Assembly (NCBI RefSeq): GCF_014337235.1
Contig: NZ_CP060636.1
Origin: [Eubacterium] hominis
Lineage (GTDB): Bacteria; Bacillota_I; Bacilli_A; Erysipelotrichales; Erysipelotrichaceae
Direction: 5' to 3' (one strand)
Length of the DNA: 64,000 bases
The position numbers were made by a program, and so were the translations under genes. Under the pieces are notes generated by a model. That model was not told the DNA's origin, searched no databases, and saw nothing but the letters and a program-made list of their open reading frames with translations. Shown in pieces: positions 48,637-58,565 of the stretch (positions are counted from its first letter, which is position 1; each line of letters starts with the position of its first letter).

Positions 48637-49191
48637 ATGAATCATAAAGGCAGTGTGGAACTATTAACAAAACGATTGTTGTTGCGCCCTTTCCGAATGG
48701 AAGATGCATATGCTATGTATGAAAATTGGGCAAGTGATGAGGAAGTTGTAAAATATCTTCGCTGGCCTGCACATCAAGATGTGACAATATCTCAAAAGGT
48801 ATTATCACAATGGACTTCTCATTATCATGAACCTGATTATTATCAATGGGCGATTGAATTAAGAGAAAGTCATCAAATCATTGGAAGCATAAGTGTTGTA
48901 AGTAAAAATGAAGAAGTTGGTATGGTACATATTGGCTATTGTATTGGCAGAACATGGTGGCATCAGGGGTATACAAGTGAAGCGTTAGAACGGTTGATTA
49001 CATTCTTTTTTGAGGATGTGCAAGTCAATCGTATTGAATCACAACATGATCCTAATAACCCGAATTCTGGTCGAGTCATGGCACATTGTGGAATGAAAAA
49101 AGAAGGAATCCATCGTCAAGCGGATATCAGCAATCAAGGTATCGTGGATGCATGTATGTATGCGATACTCGCAAGTGATGTAAGAAAATAA
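48637..49191 (+). CDS. GNAT-family N-acetyltransferase (RimJ/RimL-like)
   Basis: LLLRPFRMEDA N-terminus, conserved acetyltransferase core; terminator 49197-49232 follows. Confidence 0.7.
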   Translation: MNHKGSVELLTKRLLLRPFRMEDAYAMYENWASDEEVVKYLRWPAHQDVTISQKVLSQWTSHYHEPDYYQWAIELRESHQIIGSISVVSKNEEVGMVHIGYCIGRTWWHQGYTSEALERLITFFFEDVQVNRIESQHDPNNPNSGRVMAHCGMKKEGIHRQADISNQGIVDACMYAILASDVRK

Positions 49192-49266
49192 ACTACCCCA
49201 TGGCAAACCCGTGGGGTAGTAATTTTTGTTGTACTTAATCTTTGAATTCATTATGTTTATCAATAT

Positions 49267-49962
49267 TTAATCGTTTAGAATAGGTCCTTTTACAACTTCC
49301 ATATCAATTTCTTTGTATGTTACATTTCCATGGCCATCACTGGCTTTAATGATGATTTTATGATTACCAAGATTCTTTGTGTTAATTTCTTGATTATCAG
49401 TTCTTTCATAAGCCTTTTTGTAATCACGTTCTAAATCGGTATTTGAGAAGGTCACAATATATCCAGGATAAAAACGATTGAACTCTTTATTTTGAACAAG
49501 TGGAATTTTTTCTTTACTTTTCATATCATAAATATCAAGATCTTTTGTGATATCATAAGTCTTACCAGCTTCCACTTTGATTTTATCTTCACCTTTATAA
49601 TTGATAATAGGAGCTTTTGTATCATCGATCAATAGAGTATACTTGTGTTCATACTTTTTATCTTTATACTCAACAGAAACATTTAAATCAATAATTCTTC
49701 CAACGTTATTTTCATCATAGGTGTAGTTAATCTTGCAATCTTCTTTTTTTACATCACTTCTGAAAGTATGATACATTTCGGTATCTGGAATAGCTTCACC
49801 CCATTCAAGAACGATTGCTCCATGTCCATCAATTCCACCGTTTAGTTCAAGGAATGTAACAGGGGGTTGTGTTTCCTCTGTTTTGGCATTCTGACATCCA
49901 CTTAACAATGCCATAAAACAAGGAATTAGTACAAAAATAGTTGTCTTTTTTAGTTTCTTCAT
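49267..49962 (-). CDS. hypothetical lipoprotein
   Basis: lipobox ALLSGC/QNA; RBS aaaaaaggaggg. Confidence 0.5.
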   Translation of the reverse strand: MKKLKKTTIFVLIPCFMALLSGCQNAKTEETQPPVTFLELNGGIDGHGAIVLEWGEAIPDTEMYHTFRSDVKKEDCKINYTYDENNVGRIIDLNVSVEYKDKKYEHKYTLLIDDTKAPIINYKGEDKIKVEAGKTYDITKDLDIYDMKSKEKIPLVQNKEFNRFYPGYIVTFSNTDLERDYKKAYERTDNQEINTKNLGNHKIIIKASDGHGNVTYKEIDMEVVKGPILND

Positions 49963-50590
49963 AATAAAAACCCTCCTTTTTTGTTTTATCATAGAGCCTC
50001 CATATATAGACTTAATGAACTTTATGCCCATCGTGTAAGTCTTTAATTGATTAGTCGTAAGATGATAATTTGTGTTTTTGATGAAGAAGCTAGTGAATGA
50101 TAGCTTTTTTATAAGTCATTTTAAACTATTTTTTGTAAACGTTTTCTAATATAATAATACCATATAAAGGTTGTTTGTCAATGATGTATATATCGTAAAA
50201 TATTTATAATAAGTTTGACAAGGAATAAAAGGAATACAATAATCTAAAAACATTTTTTATATAGGAAAAGAGAATATTCATGAACACAAAAAAACGTTAA
50301 CTTTTATTTATTGAATAATTATATATCAAATATTTAAAAATAATAATTTTAGTTTCCCTATTTTAGCGCCTATAATCTTAATATTAGAACTTTTCACAAT
50401 CAATAATAGTGATTCTAGTGAAATACTGATATTGTCAATATTATAAATTTATGCTACATATTGTTATTATTGATGTTTGCAGACTTATATTCATTAGTAA
50501 TATTTTAATCAGTATTTTTCAATAAATGAATAAAAAACGTTAAAAATCATATAATAAAAATGAATATTTGCATAAAATATGCAAAATTCT

Positions 50591-50619
50591 TTGACAAAAC
50601 AGTTATATGGAGGTATTAT
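50591..50619 (+). promoter_or_regulatory. sigma-70-type promoter TTGACA-N17-TATTAT for the ATPase/HEPN pair
   Basis: exact -35 hexamer, 17-bp spacer, near-consensus -10; ~25-nt leader with RBS aaaaaggag before ATG 50645. Confidence 0.5.
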
Positions 50620-50644
50620 GAAAATGAAAAAGGAGATGGATATC

Positions 50645-51898
50645 ATGTTGTTAGAGTTTTCTTGTTCAAATTATAAATCAATTATGAATAAAGTTACATT
50701 TTCATTTTTAGCAAGTAAAGACGACACGTATGAAGATGAACTGAAATCATTTTCTAATTTTAAGGTATTAAGATCTGCTGTGATTTATGGACCAAATGGA
50801 TCTGGGAAAAGTAACTTTTTGAACGCGATTGAATTTATGCAAGGGCTAATTCTAAATAGTATAAATTATCAACCCGGAGATGATATCTCGCAATACGCAC
50901 ATAAATTAAGTGGAGATGAAACACCTTCTATTTTTTCAATGCAGTTTATAAAAAATGATATCCGATATGCCTATGGATTCTCATTACGAAATAGGTCAGT
51001 TGACGAAGAATATCTATATTATTTCCCTAAGAATAGACAAGTTAAAATTTTTGAAAGAAAAGGAATTAGCATTAAACCTGGCGATAAATACAAATCCGCA
51101 TTTGAACTAAGTTATGAAGTTTTAAAAGAAAATAGATTGTTTTTATCATGTGCAGCTAATTTTTCAAAAATAAAAGAGATTGAACAAGCCTTTTTGTTCT
51201 TTAAGGAAGATATTGTGGTCTATAATCCAGAAGTAAATAACTGGACAGAATACTCCATGAAGCTAATACAAAAAAATGAAAAAATTAAGGAGATTTTTAT
51301 TAATATTTTAAATTCTCTTGGTACAGGAATCAGGGACATCGATACAAAATTTGAAAAAAGAAATATTAGAGTTACAGATTTATCTAAGGAAATGCCAGAT
51401 ACTTTAAAATCTTTGCTATTTGGTGAAACAAATCAATTAAGTGTAAAGTTAATTTATGATCATTTTGAAACAGATTTAGTGAGTGAAGAATCAAGAGGTG
51501 TTAAGAAATTATTTGAAGTAATTTGTCCTATCATAGATATATTAAAGAATGGTAAAATTCTTATATGTGATGAGATTGAAACCAGTCTACATGAATCCAT
51601 CGTTTGGGAAATAGTGTCATTGTTTAAAAAAGCACAAACAAATAAATTTGCTCAATTACTTTTTACTACTCATGATACTAGTTTATTAGACTCAAAGCTA
51701 TTTAGAAGAGATCAGATTTGGTTTACTGAATTAGATGATAGTAGATCAACTGATTTATATTCGTTAGCAGAAATCAAGAATGTAAGAAAGACAGAAAACC
51801 TTAGAAATGGATATATGTTAGGCAAATATAGAGCAATGCCAATCATGAGTCAGAATATTTATTCTTTATTTAACGACGATAAAAAAGAAGGTGTTTAG
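50645..51898 (+). CDS. ABC-type (AAA_15/AAA_21-like) ATPase of a putative two-gene defence/abortive-infection module
   Basis: N-terminal MLLEFSCSNYKSI...VIYGPNGSGKSNFLNAIEF Walker A; C-terminal ILICDEIETSLHESIV Walker B/D-loop and LFTTHDTSLLD H-loop. Confidence 0.75.
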   Translation: MLLEFSCSNYKSIMNKVTFSFLASKDDTYEDELKSFSNFKVLRSAVIYGPNGSGKSNFLNAIEFMQGLILNSINYQPGDDISQYAHKLSGDETPSIFSMQFIKNDIRYAYGFSLRNRSVDEEYLYYFPKNRQVKIFERKGISIKPGDKYKSAFELSYEVLKENRLFLSCAANFSKIKEIEQAFLFFKEDIVVYNPEVNNWTEYSMKLIQKNEKIKEIFINILNSLGTGIRDIDTKFEKRNIRVTDLSKEMPDTLKSLLFGETNQLSVKLIYDHFETDLVSEESRGVKKLFEVICPIIDILKNGKILICDEIETSLHESIVWEIVSLFKKAQTNKFAQLLFTTHDTSLLDSKLFRRDQIWFTELDDSRSTDLYSLAEIKNVRKTENLRNGYMLGKYRAMPIMSQNIYSLFNDDKKEGV

Positions 51899-52480
51899 AT
51901 GGAAGAAAGGTCATTAGATTTACTACCGAGGTTGGAGGATACTCGTGATAGGCAAATTCCCCAAATTTTGAAATTTGAATTAAATGAAATAAAAGCACAT
52001 TTTGATGAGGACTTATCTGCAATATCAAGTTTGTTTACAGTATTTAAGCAAAATGAGAAAAATGATGTTTGTGCAAAGTTAATCTTGAGATCGCAAGTTG
52101 TTTTGTTGGAAAGTGCTTTTGATTTTTACTTACATGAAATAACAAAATTTGGTGTAAATAAAATCTTTGAGGGATCATGGGTGTCAACAGAGAAATATAA
52201 AAACATAGTCATAAAATTAGAAATGGTTGAAAAAATCTTAAACAATGAAGTTAGCGAAAATTGGTTTTTTGAGTTTATAAATCAATATTATTCAAAAGAA
52301 ACGATGGTTTCTTTTGAATCGATAAAAGATCAAATGAACTTATTAGGTATAAGAATACAAGATATTGCAGATAAGGCTTTTTATGAACAAGGTTCTTCTA
52401 AGCCAACAATAACTAAAATGAAAAACATTGTAAATGCGTTATATAAGAGAAGAAATATCATTGCCCATCAGTCAAATTGA
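51899..52480 (+). CDS. small partner protein with C-terminal HEPN-like RNxxxH motif (RRNIIAHQSN); ORF interrupted by in-frame TGA
   Basis: start overlaps ATPase stop (TAGATGG); Rx4H motif; same frame stays open for 38 codons after TGA at 52478-52480. Confidence 0.45.
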   Translation: MEERSLDLLPRLEDTRDRQIPQILKFELNEIKAHFDEDLSAISSLFTVFKQNEKNDVCAKLILRSQVVLLESAFDFYLHEITKFGVNKIFEGSWVSTEKYKNIVIKLEMVEKILNNEVSENWFFEFINQYYSKETMVSFESIKDQMNLLGIRIQDIADKAFYEQGSSKPTITKMKNIVNALYKRRNIIAHQSN

Positions 52481-52657
52481 GGACATGAAGATGCTGCATA
52501 TTATCCTATTACCAAAGAACAGGTAAATGACTTTATTGTTGGTGTTGAAAAAATAGTAAATGCAGTACATGAAGTGGCAATGCTGCATGAATGATGGTAA
52601 ATAAGTATTTAAGTTCTACAAGAAGCTTAGGTACTTTTTTTATTCAAAATTTTAAAT

Positions 52658-52686
52658 TTGACAAATAGGCAACTTGTTGCTATAAT
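52658..52686 (+). promoter_or_regulatory. sigma-70-type promoter TTGACA-N17-TATAAT of the MarR gene, with inverted-repeat operator
   Basis: consensus -35 and -10 hexamers; GCAACTTGTTGC / GCAACAAGTTAC inverted repeat brackets the -10. Confidence 0.6.
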
Positions 52687-52717
52687 TTAGGCAACAAGTT
52701 ACCTAAAGGAGGCCTAT

Positions 52718-57677: not shown

Positions 57678-58565
57678 ATGAAACTTACAGAGCTTTTAAA
57701 AGAACTCCAGACACAGGTGCCCATGTGCAGCAGTGAGGAACATGATGTGGATACCAGAAAAGCCTATATGAAAAAAACACGTACCTTCTTACATATTATA
57801 GAAGAAAGCGGTGTGCTAAAAGAATCTGAAATGAACACCTTAAAACGTATTCGTAATAAGATCAATGACATATGGATCAATTATTTATATGGAAGGGTGA
57901 ATACGGCATCATCGCAAATGCAAAATCTTCTACAATACCGTATCCATGATGATATTTATATGGATTATTTTCAAAATCCTGGATCTCAGCCAGCTATATT
58001 ATATCGAGGAAGAATCAGTGAAAAACCACTCACAGATGTGAAATCTTTTTACCATATCCCGTTTAACCAACGCTATTTGATCGGTAATCAGCGTTATAGC
58101 TTGTCAGGTATCCCTTGTTTATATCTTGCTTCTAGTATGGATTGTGTTTATGCAGAGCTTGGACAAAAAAAGAACGTTTGTTTATGTGAATGCAAATGTA
58201 AGAAAGATTTTCCATTATTTGATATGTCCATTGATTATGAATATATCTTGCATCATAAACGTACCAGAAAGGAAGTCATTGATTTTTTATATACGATGCC
58301 TTTAAAATATGCTTGTTCTATCAAGGCATTGGATAATGATGGGGCTAAGTTTAAAACAAATTACATCATTCCACAACTAATCACTGCGACACTTTATAAT
58401 ATGAATACGGATATCAAAGGGATTTGTTATGGCTCTATTGCAGGAAATGATTTATCATATCCCATGCGTTTAAATTATGTATATCTGCCTGTTTATGTTT
58501 TGGGAAAAGATATTTATGATATGGAGTTAATAACATCATTTGATATTAAAATAAGAAAAATGTAA
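57678..58565 (+). CDS. RES-domain-like protein (putative NAD-targeting toxin domain) with ~95-aa N-terminal extension
   Basis: ILYRGR ... GNQRYSLSGIPCLYLASSMDCVYAEL matches the RES R...GRWN...G.pvlYlA.s...A..E pattern; RBS aagaggagggg. Confidence 0.45.
   Translation: MKLTELLKELQTQVPMCSSEEHDVDTRKAYMKKTRTFLHIIEESGVLKESEMNTLKRIRNKINDIWINYLYGRVNTASSQMQNLLQYRIHDDIYMDYFQNPGSQPAILYRGRISEKPLTDVKSFYHIPFNQRYLIGNQRYSLSGIPCLYLASSMDCVYAELGQKKNVCLCECKCKKDFPLFDMSIDYEYILHHKRTRKEVIDFLYTMPLKYACSIKALDNDGAKFKTNYIIPQLITATLYNMNTDIKGICYGSIAGNDLSYPMRLNYVYLPVYVLGKDIYDMELITSFDIKIRKM

What the first reader, a model, noticed from the sequence alone, without database searches (positions are those of the whole stretch)
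50032..52596. AT-rich islet encoding an ABC-type ATPase plus a small HEPN-motif partner: candidate two-gene defence/abortive-infection system
About 550 bp of very AT-rich non-coding DNA precedes a consensus promoter (TTGACA-N17-TATTAT). The promoter drives a 417-aa AAA_15/21-like ATPase (Walker A GPNGSGKSN, DEIETSLHES, TTHD). Its stop overlaps the start of a 193-aa protein that ends in RRNIIAHQSN, an RNxxxH/Rx4H HEPN-type RNase motif. ATPase plus small-effector pairs of this kind recur in Septu, PARIS and Abi-type defence systems. This partner does not obviously match their known effectors (HNH, TOPRIM/DUF4435, DUF4276), so it may be an undescribed variant. It sits between a lipoprotein gene and a MarR operon, consistent with horizontal insertion.
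Basis: partly seen in the sequence, partly recalled or inferred. Interest (0 to 1): 0.65.

Follow-up and report, generated by a model that had tools for sequence, protein, structure and literature searches.

The report
Broken ATPase–HEPN RNase defence gene pair
This is a two-gene module of the kind bacteria and their prophages use for suicide-type phage defence (an ATPase plus an RNA-cutting HEPN enzyme, a pairing with no name yet), but in this gut bacterium a single-base change has cut the RNA-cutting gene short, so the copy here is probably dead.

Summary
The sequence features are real. They are a strong promoter (50591-50619), a 417-aa ABC ATPase (50645-51898) and an abutting ORF that ends RRNIIAHQSN. 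That 193-aa ORF is not a natural protein. It is a 231-aa HEPN gene (Pfam HEPN_RiboL-PSP) cut by one CGA→TGA change at 52478. The 37 codons after the stop are still in frame, and they encode the last core helix and several near-invariant residues. The organism is Amedibacillus ([Eubacterium] hominis). The truncated allele dominates public data (265 contigs, 546 index blocks). A sister lineage about 99% identical keeps Arg.

The ATPase is AbiLi/RloA-type (PADLOC AbiLi 3e-86). Its relatives on plasmids pair with RloB/TOPRIM, whereas here the partner is HEPN, so this is an effector swap. The pair is tightly linked in every locus I sampled: 45 genome loci, 16 viral contigs and 6 loci found from the ATPase side. 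Its neighbours vary, and in prophages it sits between the lysis and integrase genes.

The most likely function is an ATPase-gated RNase that aborts phage infection, as in PARIS, PrrC and RloC, but this copy looks inactivated. No named system matched. Loss of the effector first recurs in other lineages. The "islet" inference is wrong: the variable DNA is the lipoprotein gene plus the AT-rich spacer. I rate this a new variant of a known kind, of moderate interest.

The parts
49194..50520 (.). Window-specific indel holding the lipoprotein gene (49267-49962/50031, minus strand) and most of the AT-rich spacer. It is not part of the ATPase/HEPN module.
   Evidence: Absent from L054 and L002, where the GNAT 3' end joins about 50 nt before the equivalent of 50521. 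Rearranged around an IS3-family element in L053. GC is 27% overall and 21% for the spacer. No Rfam hit and no meaningful repeats.
50591..50619 (+). Sigma-70-type promoter, TTGACA-N17-TATTAT, for the two-gene operon.
   Evidence: Matches 11 of 12 consensus positions. It lies inside the stretch conserved with L002, L053, L054 and L055, which starts at 50521-50525. It is followed by AGGAG at 50631-50635, 9 nt before ATG 50645.
50645..51898 (+). AbiLi/RloA-type ABC ATPase, 417 aa and intact. The same reading frame is also open from ATG 50579, which would give 439 aa. Motifs: Walker A at 50789-50812, Walker B at 51557-51574, H-loop at 51665-51676.
   Evidence: PADLOC AbiLi PDLC02335 at 3.2e-86. Pfam AAA_21 at 2.1e-25, above its cut-off. 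Motifs located. It is 36% identical end to end (E 4e-69) to a plasmid ATPase that is followed by an RloB gene. All differences from the intact-HEPN strains are synonymous, 5 to 11 per strain. The exact protein is in NCBI as QNM14261.1, 'ATP-binding protein'.
51899..52480 (+). Truncated HEPN (RiboL-PSP type) ORF, 193 aa. It keeps the Rx4H motif (R185-H190, 52451-52468).
   Evidence: Pfam PF18735 scores 24.7 bits for this ORF, below the cut-off. Full-length homologs are 231-239 aa. The exact 193-aa protein is on 265 contigs and in 546 index blocks, including a 3.88-Mb Amedibacillus genome.
52478..52480 (+). Premature stop codon TGA, derived from CGA (Arg194).
   Evidence: L053, L054 and L055, which are 99% identical, have C at 52478, giving CGA. 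Arg is near-invariant at this column. TGA is a normal stop in this genome, ending 11 of 58 genes.
52481..52594 (+). Post-stop remnant of the HEPN gene: 37 codons and the original TGA stop (52592-52594). It encodes the loop and the last core helix.
   Evidence: Adding it raises the PF18735 score to 35.3 bits and extends coverage to profile position 188 of 191. It aligns with homologs and includes the near-invariant H196, A199, I219 and V220 and the invariant V209. In the AlphaFold model of an intact homolog, helix 206-230 has pLDDT of about 90-98.

Best explanation
The locus is a two-gene operon. It encodes an AbiLi/RloA-type ABC ATPase and a stand-alone HEPN ribonuclease of the RiboL-PSP family. 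It belongs to the broad class of 'ABC ATPase plus nuclease' abortive-infection modules (AbiL, PARIS, Septu, and the fused PrrC and RloC), but the usual TOPRIM or HNH partner is replaced by HEPN.

Inferred mechanism for intact copies: the ATPase dimer holds the HEPN RNase inactive. A phage cue changes the ATPase's nucleotide state or conformation. The HEPN protein is then released or activated, dimerises through its Rx4H faces, and cleaves tRNA or mRNA. Translation stops and the infection aborts.

In this genome a CGA→TGA nonsense mutation at codon 194 removes the last core helix and several near-invariant residues. The effector is therefore most likely inactive, and the locus is a recently disabled remnant with a still-intact ATPase.

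Shown: the domain identities, the operon linkage, the mobility, the nonsense allele and its population frequency. Inferred: complex formation, the trigger, the RNA target, the defence phenotype and the loss of function.
For: Identity of the two proteins:
- ATPase: PADLOC AbiLi 3e-86 and Pfam AAA_21. It is 36% identical across its full length to RloB-partnered plasmid ATPases.
- The HEPN profile has no similarity to RloB, hhalign probability 0.1%.

Linkage: the ATPase lies immediately upstream of the HEPN gene in 45 of 47 genome loci that have room upstream; the two exceptions are degraded HEPN fragments. The same holds in 16 of 16 viral contigs and in look-ups that started from the ATPase.

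Mobility and defence context:
- 140 neighbouring genes fall into 193 Pfam families, none seen more than 4 times. They include Gabija, SoFic, bSEFIR, PD-T4-1, restriction-modification genes and integrases.
- In viral contigs the flanks are endolysin, holin, integrase and repressor genes.
- The pair's GC content (28-30%) is among the 5 lowest of 58 genes in the window.

Truncation: CGA versus TGA. The lost segment carries R194, H196, A199, V209, I219 and V220, all conserved at 90% or more, and helix 206-230.

Decay on the truncated background:
- Two different 1-nt deletions in the ATPase gene (L077, L078).
- Three nonsynonymous changes in a conserved HEPN motif in L001.

Effector-first loss elsewhere: nonsense codons opposite residues 30, 45 and 104, one frameshift and one deletion, each with an intact ATPase, against a single case where the ATPase was hit first. 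Binomial p is about 0.01-0.06 depending on how events are counted.

Analogy: PrrC and RloC are ABC ATPases that regulate a fused HEPN anticodon nuclease (PMC3710099). PARIS and AbiL are ABC ATPases with TOPRIM partners (PMC13064643).
Against: - No experiment exists for this family, and no phage, plasmid or defence database entry names it. PADLOC v2 has no model for the partner.
- Only a minority of neighbours are defence genes, roughly 12% by PADLOC hits without system rules. In this genome the pair sits among housekeeping-looking genes, and it is syntenic across about 13% nucleotide divergence.
- Loss of function of the truncated protein is inferred, not measured, and the Rx4H motif is retained.
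- The ATPase remains intact and identical in most sampled genomes. This could mean it still has a function.
- The ATPase frameshifts lie in A-runs and could be assembly errors.
- The ATPase structural model was poor (pLDDT 59).
Confidence: 0.65

Rival explanations
1. The truncated 193-aa HEPN protein still works, either as an RNase or as a regulator bound to the ATPase, and the system is active in this lineage. On this view the nonsense allele spread because it is advantageous, for example through lower self-toxicity.
For: The Rx4H motif is retained upstream of the stop. The truncated allele is very common, on 265 contigs and in 546 blocks, and the ATPase is intact in most of them.
Against: The stop removes a confidently modelled core helix and six residues conserved at 90% or more, including R194 and H196 right next to the motif. 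The product falls below the Pfam cut-off. Among the homologs at 50% identity or less, those shorter than about 200 aa look like fragments and the rest are about 230 aa. Further damage is seen on this background. The high frequency can be explained by one widely sampled near-clonal lineage, since its sequences are 99.9-100% identical.
Confidence: 0.1
2. The pair is mainly a toxin-antitoxin-like addiction or stabilisation module for mobile elements, with HEPN as the toxin and the ATPase as the neutraliser. On this view it has no dedicated anti-phage role.
For: HEPN toxins are the commonest toxins of such modules, and HepT is among the top fold matches. Effector-first decay with the ATPase retained is what a toxin/neutraliser pair predicts. 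The module occurs on prophages. Pfam describes AAA_21 as a 'putative AbiEii toxin, Type IV TA system'.
Against: The ATPase is the AbiLi type, which comes from a validated abortive-infection system (PMC13064643). The HEPN partner was not found on any of 72,556 plasmids. The slot between the prophage lysis and integrase genes is typical of defence cargo. The two roles are not exclusive: PARIS has been described as behaving like a type II toxin-antitoxin system (PMC13064643).
Confidence: 0.15
3. The in-frame TGA is read through or recoded, for example by near-cognate tRNA-Trp. Some full-length HEPN protein would then be made, and the stop would act as an attenuator.
For: The 37 codons after the stop are still open and unchanged. 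Gene callers using genetic code 4 produced a 233-aa product from the same DNA (P0109). Low-level UGA read-through is known in Firmicutes (my own knowledge, not tested here).
Against: The genome uses the standard code and TGA ends 11 of 58 genes. P0109 is a gene-calling artefact seen only on contigs under 5 kb. The downstream frame can stay open simply because the mutation is recent: there are no changes in those 114 nt in any lineage sampled. Rfam finds no recoding element. A Trp in place of the near-invariant Arg194 might itself be damaging.
Confidence: 0.05
4. The pair is a housekeeping ABC-type factor for DNA repair or RNA processing (RecF, SbcC or Rad50-like) with an accessory protein.
For: There are weak SMC_N, AAA_23 and recF P-loop matches. 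Rad50 heads the fold hits for the low-quality ATPase model.
Against: The recF match scores 20.9 bits against a cut-off of 172 and covers only the P-loop. The pair has a patchy distribution in unrelated genomic contexts and in prophages. The effector gene is repeatedly inactivated. The best profile match by far is AbiLi.
Confidence: 0.02

Closest known systems
AbiL (Lactococcus AbiLi + AbiLii) and RloAB-type pairs
   Same: The ATPase matches the PADLOC AbiLi model at 3e-86. It aligns end to end with plasmid ATPases that are followed by RloB-family genes, at 34-37% identity. Both are two-gene operons with the ATPase first and the start and stop codons abutting.
   Different: The second gene is a HEPN RNase, not AbiLii/RloB (TOPRIM/OLD fold). 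It has no PADLOC or Pfam RloB hit, and hhalign gives a probability of 0.1%. The predicted target is RNA, cut without a metal ion, and not a TOPRIM metal-dependent cleavage.
PARIS (AriA ABC ATPase + AriB DUF4435/TOPRIM)
   Same: Both pair an AAA_15/21-type ABC ATPase with a separate small nuclease. The likely logic, in which the ATPase sequesters the nuclease until a trigger arrives and translation is then shut down, is borrowed from PARIS. The AriA models hit at 2e-27, and AriA (8ux9) is among the fold hits for the weak model.
   Different: The effector fold is different (HEPN, not TOPRIM). The ATPase is closer to AbiLi than to AriA. No trigger is known.
PrrC / RloC anticodon nucleases
   Same: In both cases an ABC ATPase controls a HEPN RNase that carries an Rx4-6H motif (PMC3710099). 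This is the closest functional analogy, tRNA cleavage gated by an ABC ATPase.
   Different: PrrC and RloC are single polypeptides with a C-terminal HEPN domain of a different HEPN family. Here there are two genes and a RiboL-PSP-type HEPN. There is no linkage to a type I restriction-modification system as there is for PrrC.
Pfam HEPN_RiboL-PSP (PF18735) proteins, and HEPN defence proteins cited under that family (PD-T4-2, PD-T4-5, PD-T7-3/DARNA, ApeA)
   Same: The read-through protein passes the PF18735 cut-off and has the Rx4H motif and the HEPN fold.
   Different: Those are single-gene systems, and their PADLOC models do not hit this protein. Anantharaman 2013 lists this family as fused to L-PSP or in an operon with ParB, not with an ABC ATPase.
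HepT/MntA (HEPN/MNT) toxin-antitoxin systems
   Different: There is no MNT nucleotidyltransferase partner. The protein is larger (231 aa against about 130) and has an inserted helical subdomain. Sequence identity is only 8-15%.

Membership tests
AbiL (AbiLi + AbiLii) | An AbiLi-type ABC ATPase encoded first in the operon | tested here: met
   PADLOC PDLC02335 AbiLi at 3.2e-86. Walker A, Walker B and H-loop motifs are present.
AbiL (AbiLi + AbiLii) | An AbiLii/RloB-family (TOPRIM/OLD-like) second protein | tested here: not met
   No PADLOC AbiLii hit and no Pfam RloB hit at E up to 1-10. hhalign against a plasmid RloB gives probability 0.1%. The partner has a HEPN fold.
AbiL (AbiLi + AbiLii) | A demonstrated abortive-infection phenotype | not testable with these tools
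   This needs phage challenge experiments.
PARIS (AriA + AriB) | An AAA_15/AAA_21 ABC ATPase | tested here: met
   AAA_21 scores 90.8 bits against a cut-off of 27. AriA model PDLC02980 hits at 1.9e-27.
PARIS (AriA + AriB) | A DUF4435/TOPRIM AriB partner | tested here: not met
   No DUF4435 or AriB hit in Pfam or PADLOC.
Septu (PtuA + PtuB) | An HNH nuclease PtuB partner | tested here: not met
   Only weak PtuA hits, 5.5e-7. The partner has no HNH hit.
PrrC / RloC | ABC ATPase and HEPN domain in one polypeptide | tested here: not met
   There are two separate ORFs, with TAG 51896-51898 followed by ATG 51899. Homologs everywhere are also two genes.
PrrC / RloC | An Rx4-6H HEPN catalytic motif | tested here: met
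   R185-N-I-I-A-H190. N186 and H190 are invariant and R185 is conserved in at least 90% of sequences.
Pfam HEPN_RiboL-PSP (PF18735) | A profile score at or above the gathering cut-off (28.4 bits) | tested here: inconclusive
   The actual 193-aa product scores 24.7 bits and fails. The reconstructed 231-aa protein scores 35.3 bits and passes. Intact homologs carry a precomputed PF18735 assignment.
Pfam HEPN_RiboL-PSP (PF18735) | A HEPN helical-bundle fold | tested here: met
HepT/MntA toxin-antitoxin | An adjacent MNT nucleotidyltransferase antitoxin | tested here: not met
   The neighbours are the ABC ATPase upstream and a MarR gene downstream.
Housekeeping RecF/SbcC/SMC ABC ATPases | An equivalog-level profile match and conserved housekeeping context | tested here: not met
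   recF scores 20.9 bits against a cut-off of 172, and the SMC models score about 15-18 bits against cut-offs of 567-729. Contexts are variable and include prophages.

The most novel reading that the evidence does not exclude
Intact versions of this pair could be an unnamed anti-phage abortive-infection family, in effect a 'split PrrC/RloC': an AbiLi-type ABC ATPase guarding a stand-alone RiboL-PSP HEPN RNase. The family is widespread in gut Clostridia and Erysipelotrichia and in their prophages. The ATPase would act as sensor and also as the essential restraint on the toxin. That would explain why lineages repeatedly lose the HEPN gene first, as this Amedibacillus lineage has done.
Probability: 0.45. 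Interest if true: 0.55.

Novelty: new variant of a known kind. Interest (0 to 1): 0.4.

Why it matters
If the intact pair defends against phage, it adds HEPN to the list of nucleases (TOPRIM, HNH, NERD, PIN) that AbiLi/PARIS-class ABC ATPases can control from a separate gene. It would also link that class directly to the fused PrrC and RloC anticodon nucleases. Natural 'on' (CGA) and 'off' (TGA) alleles that differ by one base exist in a common human-gut bacterium, which gives a ready-made experimental contrast. The repeated pattern of effector loss with the ATPase kept is a testable sign that the ATPase restrains the toxin.

For annotation there are two practical points:
- The deposited 193-aa 'hypothetical protein' is a pseudogene fragment.
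- Some pipelines mis-call it as a 233-aa protein by applying genetic code 4.

Tried and rejected
- Rfam scans of the whole window and a permissive scan of the spacer found nothing.
- The repeat search around the spacer found only chance-level repeats and the GNAT terminator hairpin.
- No intrinsic terminator was detected after the HEPN gene.
- The HEPN protein gave no match against GenBank phages or 72,556 plasmids.
- PDB sequence searches gave nothing for either protein. The BFVD viral fold search gave nothing significant.
- I rejected P0109 (233 aa) as an intact allele. It is a genetic-code-4 gene call of the same TGA-containing DNA.
- I rejected PD-T4-4 as an equivalent. Its nuclease is described as PD-(D/E)xK or HNH, not HEPN.
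- I rejected DARNA/PD-T7-3. It is a single 55-kDa protein.
- The ATPase homolog search listed only hits at 60% identity or more. I therefore could not sample the identity level at which the partner switches from HEPN to RloB.
- I considered TGA reassignment and rejected it.
Full report
**Observation.**
- The DNA upstream of the ATPase gene is AT-rich, with GC of 18-23% across 50000-50600 against a window mean of 34%.
- TTGACA-N17-TATTAT lies at 50591-50619 and matches 11 of 12 consensus positions. An AGGAG site at 50631-50635 follows, 9 nt before ATG 50645.
- The ATPase ORF (50645-51898) is 417 aa. It has Walker A GPNGSGKS, Walker B ILICDE followed by IETSLHES, and H-loop TTHD.
- Its TAG stop (51896-51898) abuts the ATG of the next ORF and does not overlap it.
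- That ORF (51899-52480, 193 aa) ends RRNIIAHQSN, with an Rx4H motif at R185-H190.

**The small ORF is a truncated gene.** Translation through the TGA at 52478-52480 gives 37 more in-frame codons, up to a second stop at 52592-52594.
- Pfam HEPN_RiboL-PSP (PF18735) scores 24.7 bits on the 193-aa product, below the 28.4 cut-off, and the match ends at profile position 161 of 191. The read-through protein scores 35.3 bits over positions 6-188.
- Of 107 homologs, nearly all are 231-239 aa. The TGA aligns with an Arg conserved in at least 90% of sequences.
- Contigs about 99% identical to the window (L053-L055) carry CGA at this codon, so the lesion is a single C→T transition.
- The genome uses the standard code. 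ORFs read under table 11 cover 83% of the window, and TGA ends 11 of 58 genes.
- A 233-aa 'intact' protein in the databases (P0109) is the same DNA called with genetic code 4.

**Organism and population.**
- The exact proteins are deposited from Amedibacillus ([Eubacterium] hominis, Absiella sp.).
- The 193-aa allele is on 265 contigs and in 546 index blocks, including a 3.88-Mb genome. Sampled copies are 99.9-100% identical to the window across the pair.
- The intact R194 allele (P0111) was found on three contigs from a lineage about 1% diverged.
- Between the two lineages the ATPase differs only at synonymous sites, 5 to 11 per strain. The HEPN gene differs at 2-4 synonymous sites and one nonsynonymous site.
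- On the truncated background there is further damage. L077 and L078 carry two different 1-nt deletions in A-runs of the ATPase gene. L001 carries three nonsynonymous changes in the conserved LLESAFDFYLHE block. These fit decay after effector loss, but homopolymer assembly errors cannot be excluded.

**What the module is.**
- The ATPase matches the PADLOC AbiLi model at 3e-86, with weaker hits to AriA, HEC-01A, mad3 and PtuA. NCBIfam gives only P-loop-level hits to RecF and SMC, far below their cut-offs.
- Its nearest plasmid relatives (34-37% identity over the full length) are followed by RloB-family genes, which is the canonical AbiL/RloAB arrangement.
- The HEPN profile has no similarity to RloB, and no PADLOC effector model hits it.
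- So this is an AbiLi-type ATPase whose TOPRIM partner has been exchanged for a HEPN RNase.

**Linkage and mobility.**
- A scan of species-representative genomes with the HEPN family returned 50 loci. Most are Lachnospiraceae and other Clostridia, with Floccifex, Selenomonas, a spirochaete and a Synergistaceae MAG also present.
- A 50-65% identical ATPase lies immediately upstream in 45 of the 47 loci that have room. The two exceptions are degraded HEPN fragments.
- All 16 IMG/VR viral contigs with the HEPN gene also carry the ATPase. Look-ups that started from the ATPase found the HEPN gene downstream.
- The 140 flanking genes fall into 193 Pfam families, none present more than four times. 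They include Gabija, SoFic, bSEFIR, PD-T4-1, restriction-modification genes, further AbiLi-like ATPases and integrases.
- On viral contigs the neighbours are endolysin, holin, integrase and repressor genes, which mark the prophage accessory-gene slot.
- The HEPN family is modest in size, with 939 clusters at 50% identity, and almost all members are stand-alone proteins of about 230 aa.

**The 'islet' inference.** A relative about 87% identical (L002) and an intact-allele strain (L054) both carry the pair at the same site, between the GNAT and MarR genes. Both lack window 49194-50520, which holds the lipoprotein gene and the AT-rich spacer. L053 has an IS3-family element there. The recent indel is therefore the lipoprotein/spacer segment, not the pair. 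The pair's low GC content (28-30%, among the five lowest of 58 genes) is consistent with an older foreign origin.

**Recurrent effector-first loss.**
- The 50 genome loci break down as follows:
  - 39 have both genes intact.
  - 5 have an intact ATPase and a disrupted HEPN gene. L013 has a stop opposite residue 45 and L014 one opposite residue 104. L034 is frameshifted. L051 keeps only residues 182-227. L038 is borderline.
  - 1 has the reverse pattern (L042).
  - 3 have a disrupted HEPN gene and no ATPase: two are orphan remnants and one lies near a contig start.
  - 2 have the HEPN match cut off at a contig end.
- A further lineage (L086-L088) has a stop opposite residue 30. All 15 fully covered viral copies are intact.
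- The HEPN gene is only 36% of the combined target length. Depending on which events are counted, the excess of HEPN-first hits has a binomial p of about 0.004-0.06.
- The loci were found through conserved HEPN motifs, which if anything biases against detecting HEPN loss.
- This asymmetry is what one expects if the ATPase restrains a toxic RNase.

**Mechanism (inferred).** The model rests on analogy. PrrC and RloC are ABC ATPases that gate a fused HEPN anticodon nuclease (PMC3710099). PARIS and AbiL are ABC ATPases with a separate TOPRIM nuclease (PMC13064643). In intact copies the ATPase probably holds the HEPN protein inactive until a phage cue arrives. The HEPN protein then dimerises and cleaves tRNA or mRNA, which stops translation and aborts the infection. 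In this genome the effector is truncated, so the locus is best read as a recently disabled copy.

**Literature and novelty.**
- Full-text searches found ABC ATPases paired with TOPRIM, HNH, NERD, PIN or PD-(D/E)xK nucleases, and fused to HEPN. None described a system with an ABC ATPase and a RiboL-PSP HEPN as two separate genes.
- Anantharaman 2013 lists this HEPN family as fused to L-PSP or in an operon with ParB.
- The library is incomplete, and I could not run the current DefenseFinder or PADLOC releases.
- I rate the finding a new variant of a known kind. Interest is moderate because the architecture is an expected combination and this particular copy is probably dead. The natural on/off alleles and the effector-first decay pattern do make the family easy to test.

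Noticed in passing
window 57678-58565 (+): A 295-aa protein has a sub-threshold Pfam RES-domain match (18.7 bits against a cut-off of 23.2, residues 125-254) and an unannotated N-terminal region of about 120 aa. It is conserved in relative L002 and has no obvious adjacent antitoxin. It may be an orphan RES-like toxin. It has no PADLOC hit.
   Followed up: partly
window 52658-52705 (+): A perfect TTGACA-N17-TATAAT promoter with an upstream TG lies ahead of the MarR/FMN-binding/flavodoxin operon. By eye, an inverted repeat (GGCAACTTGTTGC / GGCAACAAGTTACC) overlaps it and may be a MarR operator.
   Followed up: no
window 49194-50520; L053 1-3600: The lipoprotein gene and the AT-rich spacer form a strain-variable segment. 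It is absent in L054 and L002 and is rearranged next to an IS3-family transposase pair in L053. The lipoprotein has no Pfam family. In the loci sampled, the insert occurs in all the truncated-HEPN contigs that reach far enough upstream (L056, L077, L079-L082).
   Followed up: partly
window 51899-52600; loci L056-L058: On short metagenomic contigs, public gene callers translated this pseudogene with genetic code 4. This produced a spurious 233-aa protein ending ...LHEWW (P0109), indexed in 29 blocks of the collection, all on contigs under 5 kb.
   Followed up: yes
L077 (equivalent to window ~50950) and L078 (equivalent to window ~51124): Two different single-base deletions in A-runs frameshift the ATPase gene on the truncated-HEPN background, leaving the same 253-aa remnant (P0126, 5 contigs including a 188-kb one). 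This is either secondary decay or homopolymer assembly error.
   Followed up: partly
L013, L014, L034, L051, L086-L088, L047, L052: The HEPN gene is inactivated independently in other taxa, by nonsense codons opposite residues 30, 45 and 104, a frameshift and deletions. The ATPase is left intact in L013, L014, L034, L051 and L086-L088; L047 and L052 are orphan HEPN remnants with no ATPase. Only one locus (L042) shows the opposite pattern.
   Followed up: yes
L002 14871-15819: The relative about 87% identical carries ToxN-toxin and RhuM-family genes about 6 kb downstream of the pair. The alignment with the window ends at L002 14998, equivalent to window 58816, so this small defence or toxin cluster appears to be absent from the window.
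   Followed up: no
window 49189-49223: The hairpin ACTACCCCATGG...CCGTGGGGTAGT lies just after the GNAT stop codon and is followed by a T-run. It is probably a terminator shared by the convergent GNAT and lipoprotein genes (inverted repeat I4).
   Followed up: no
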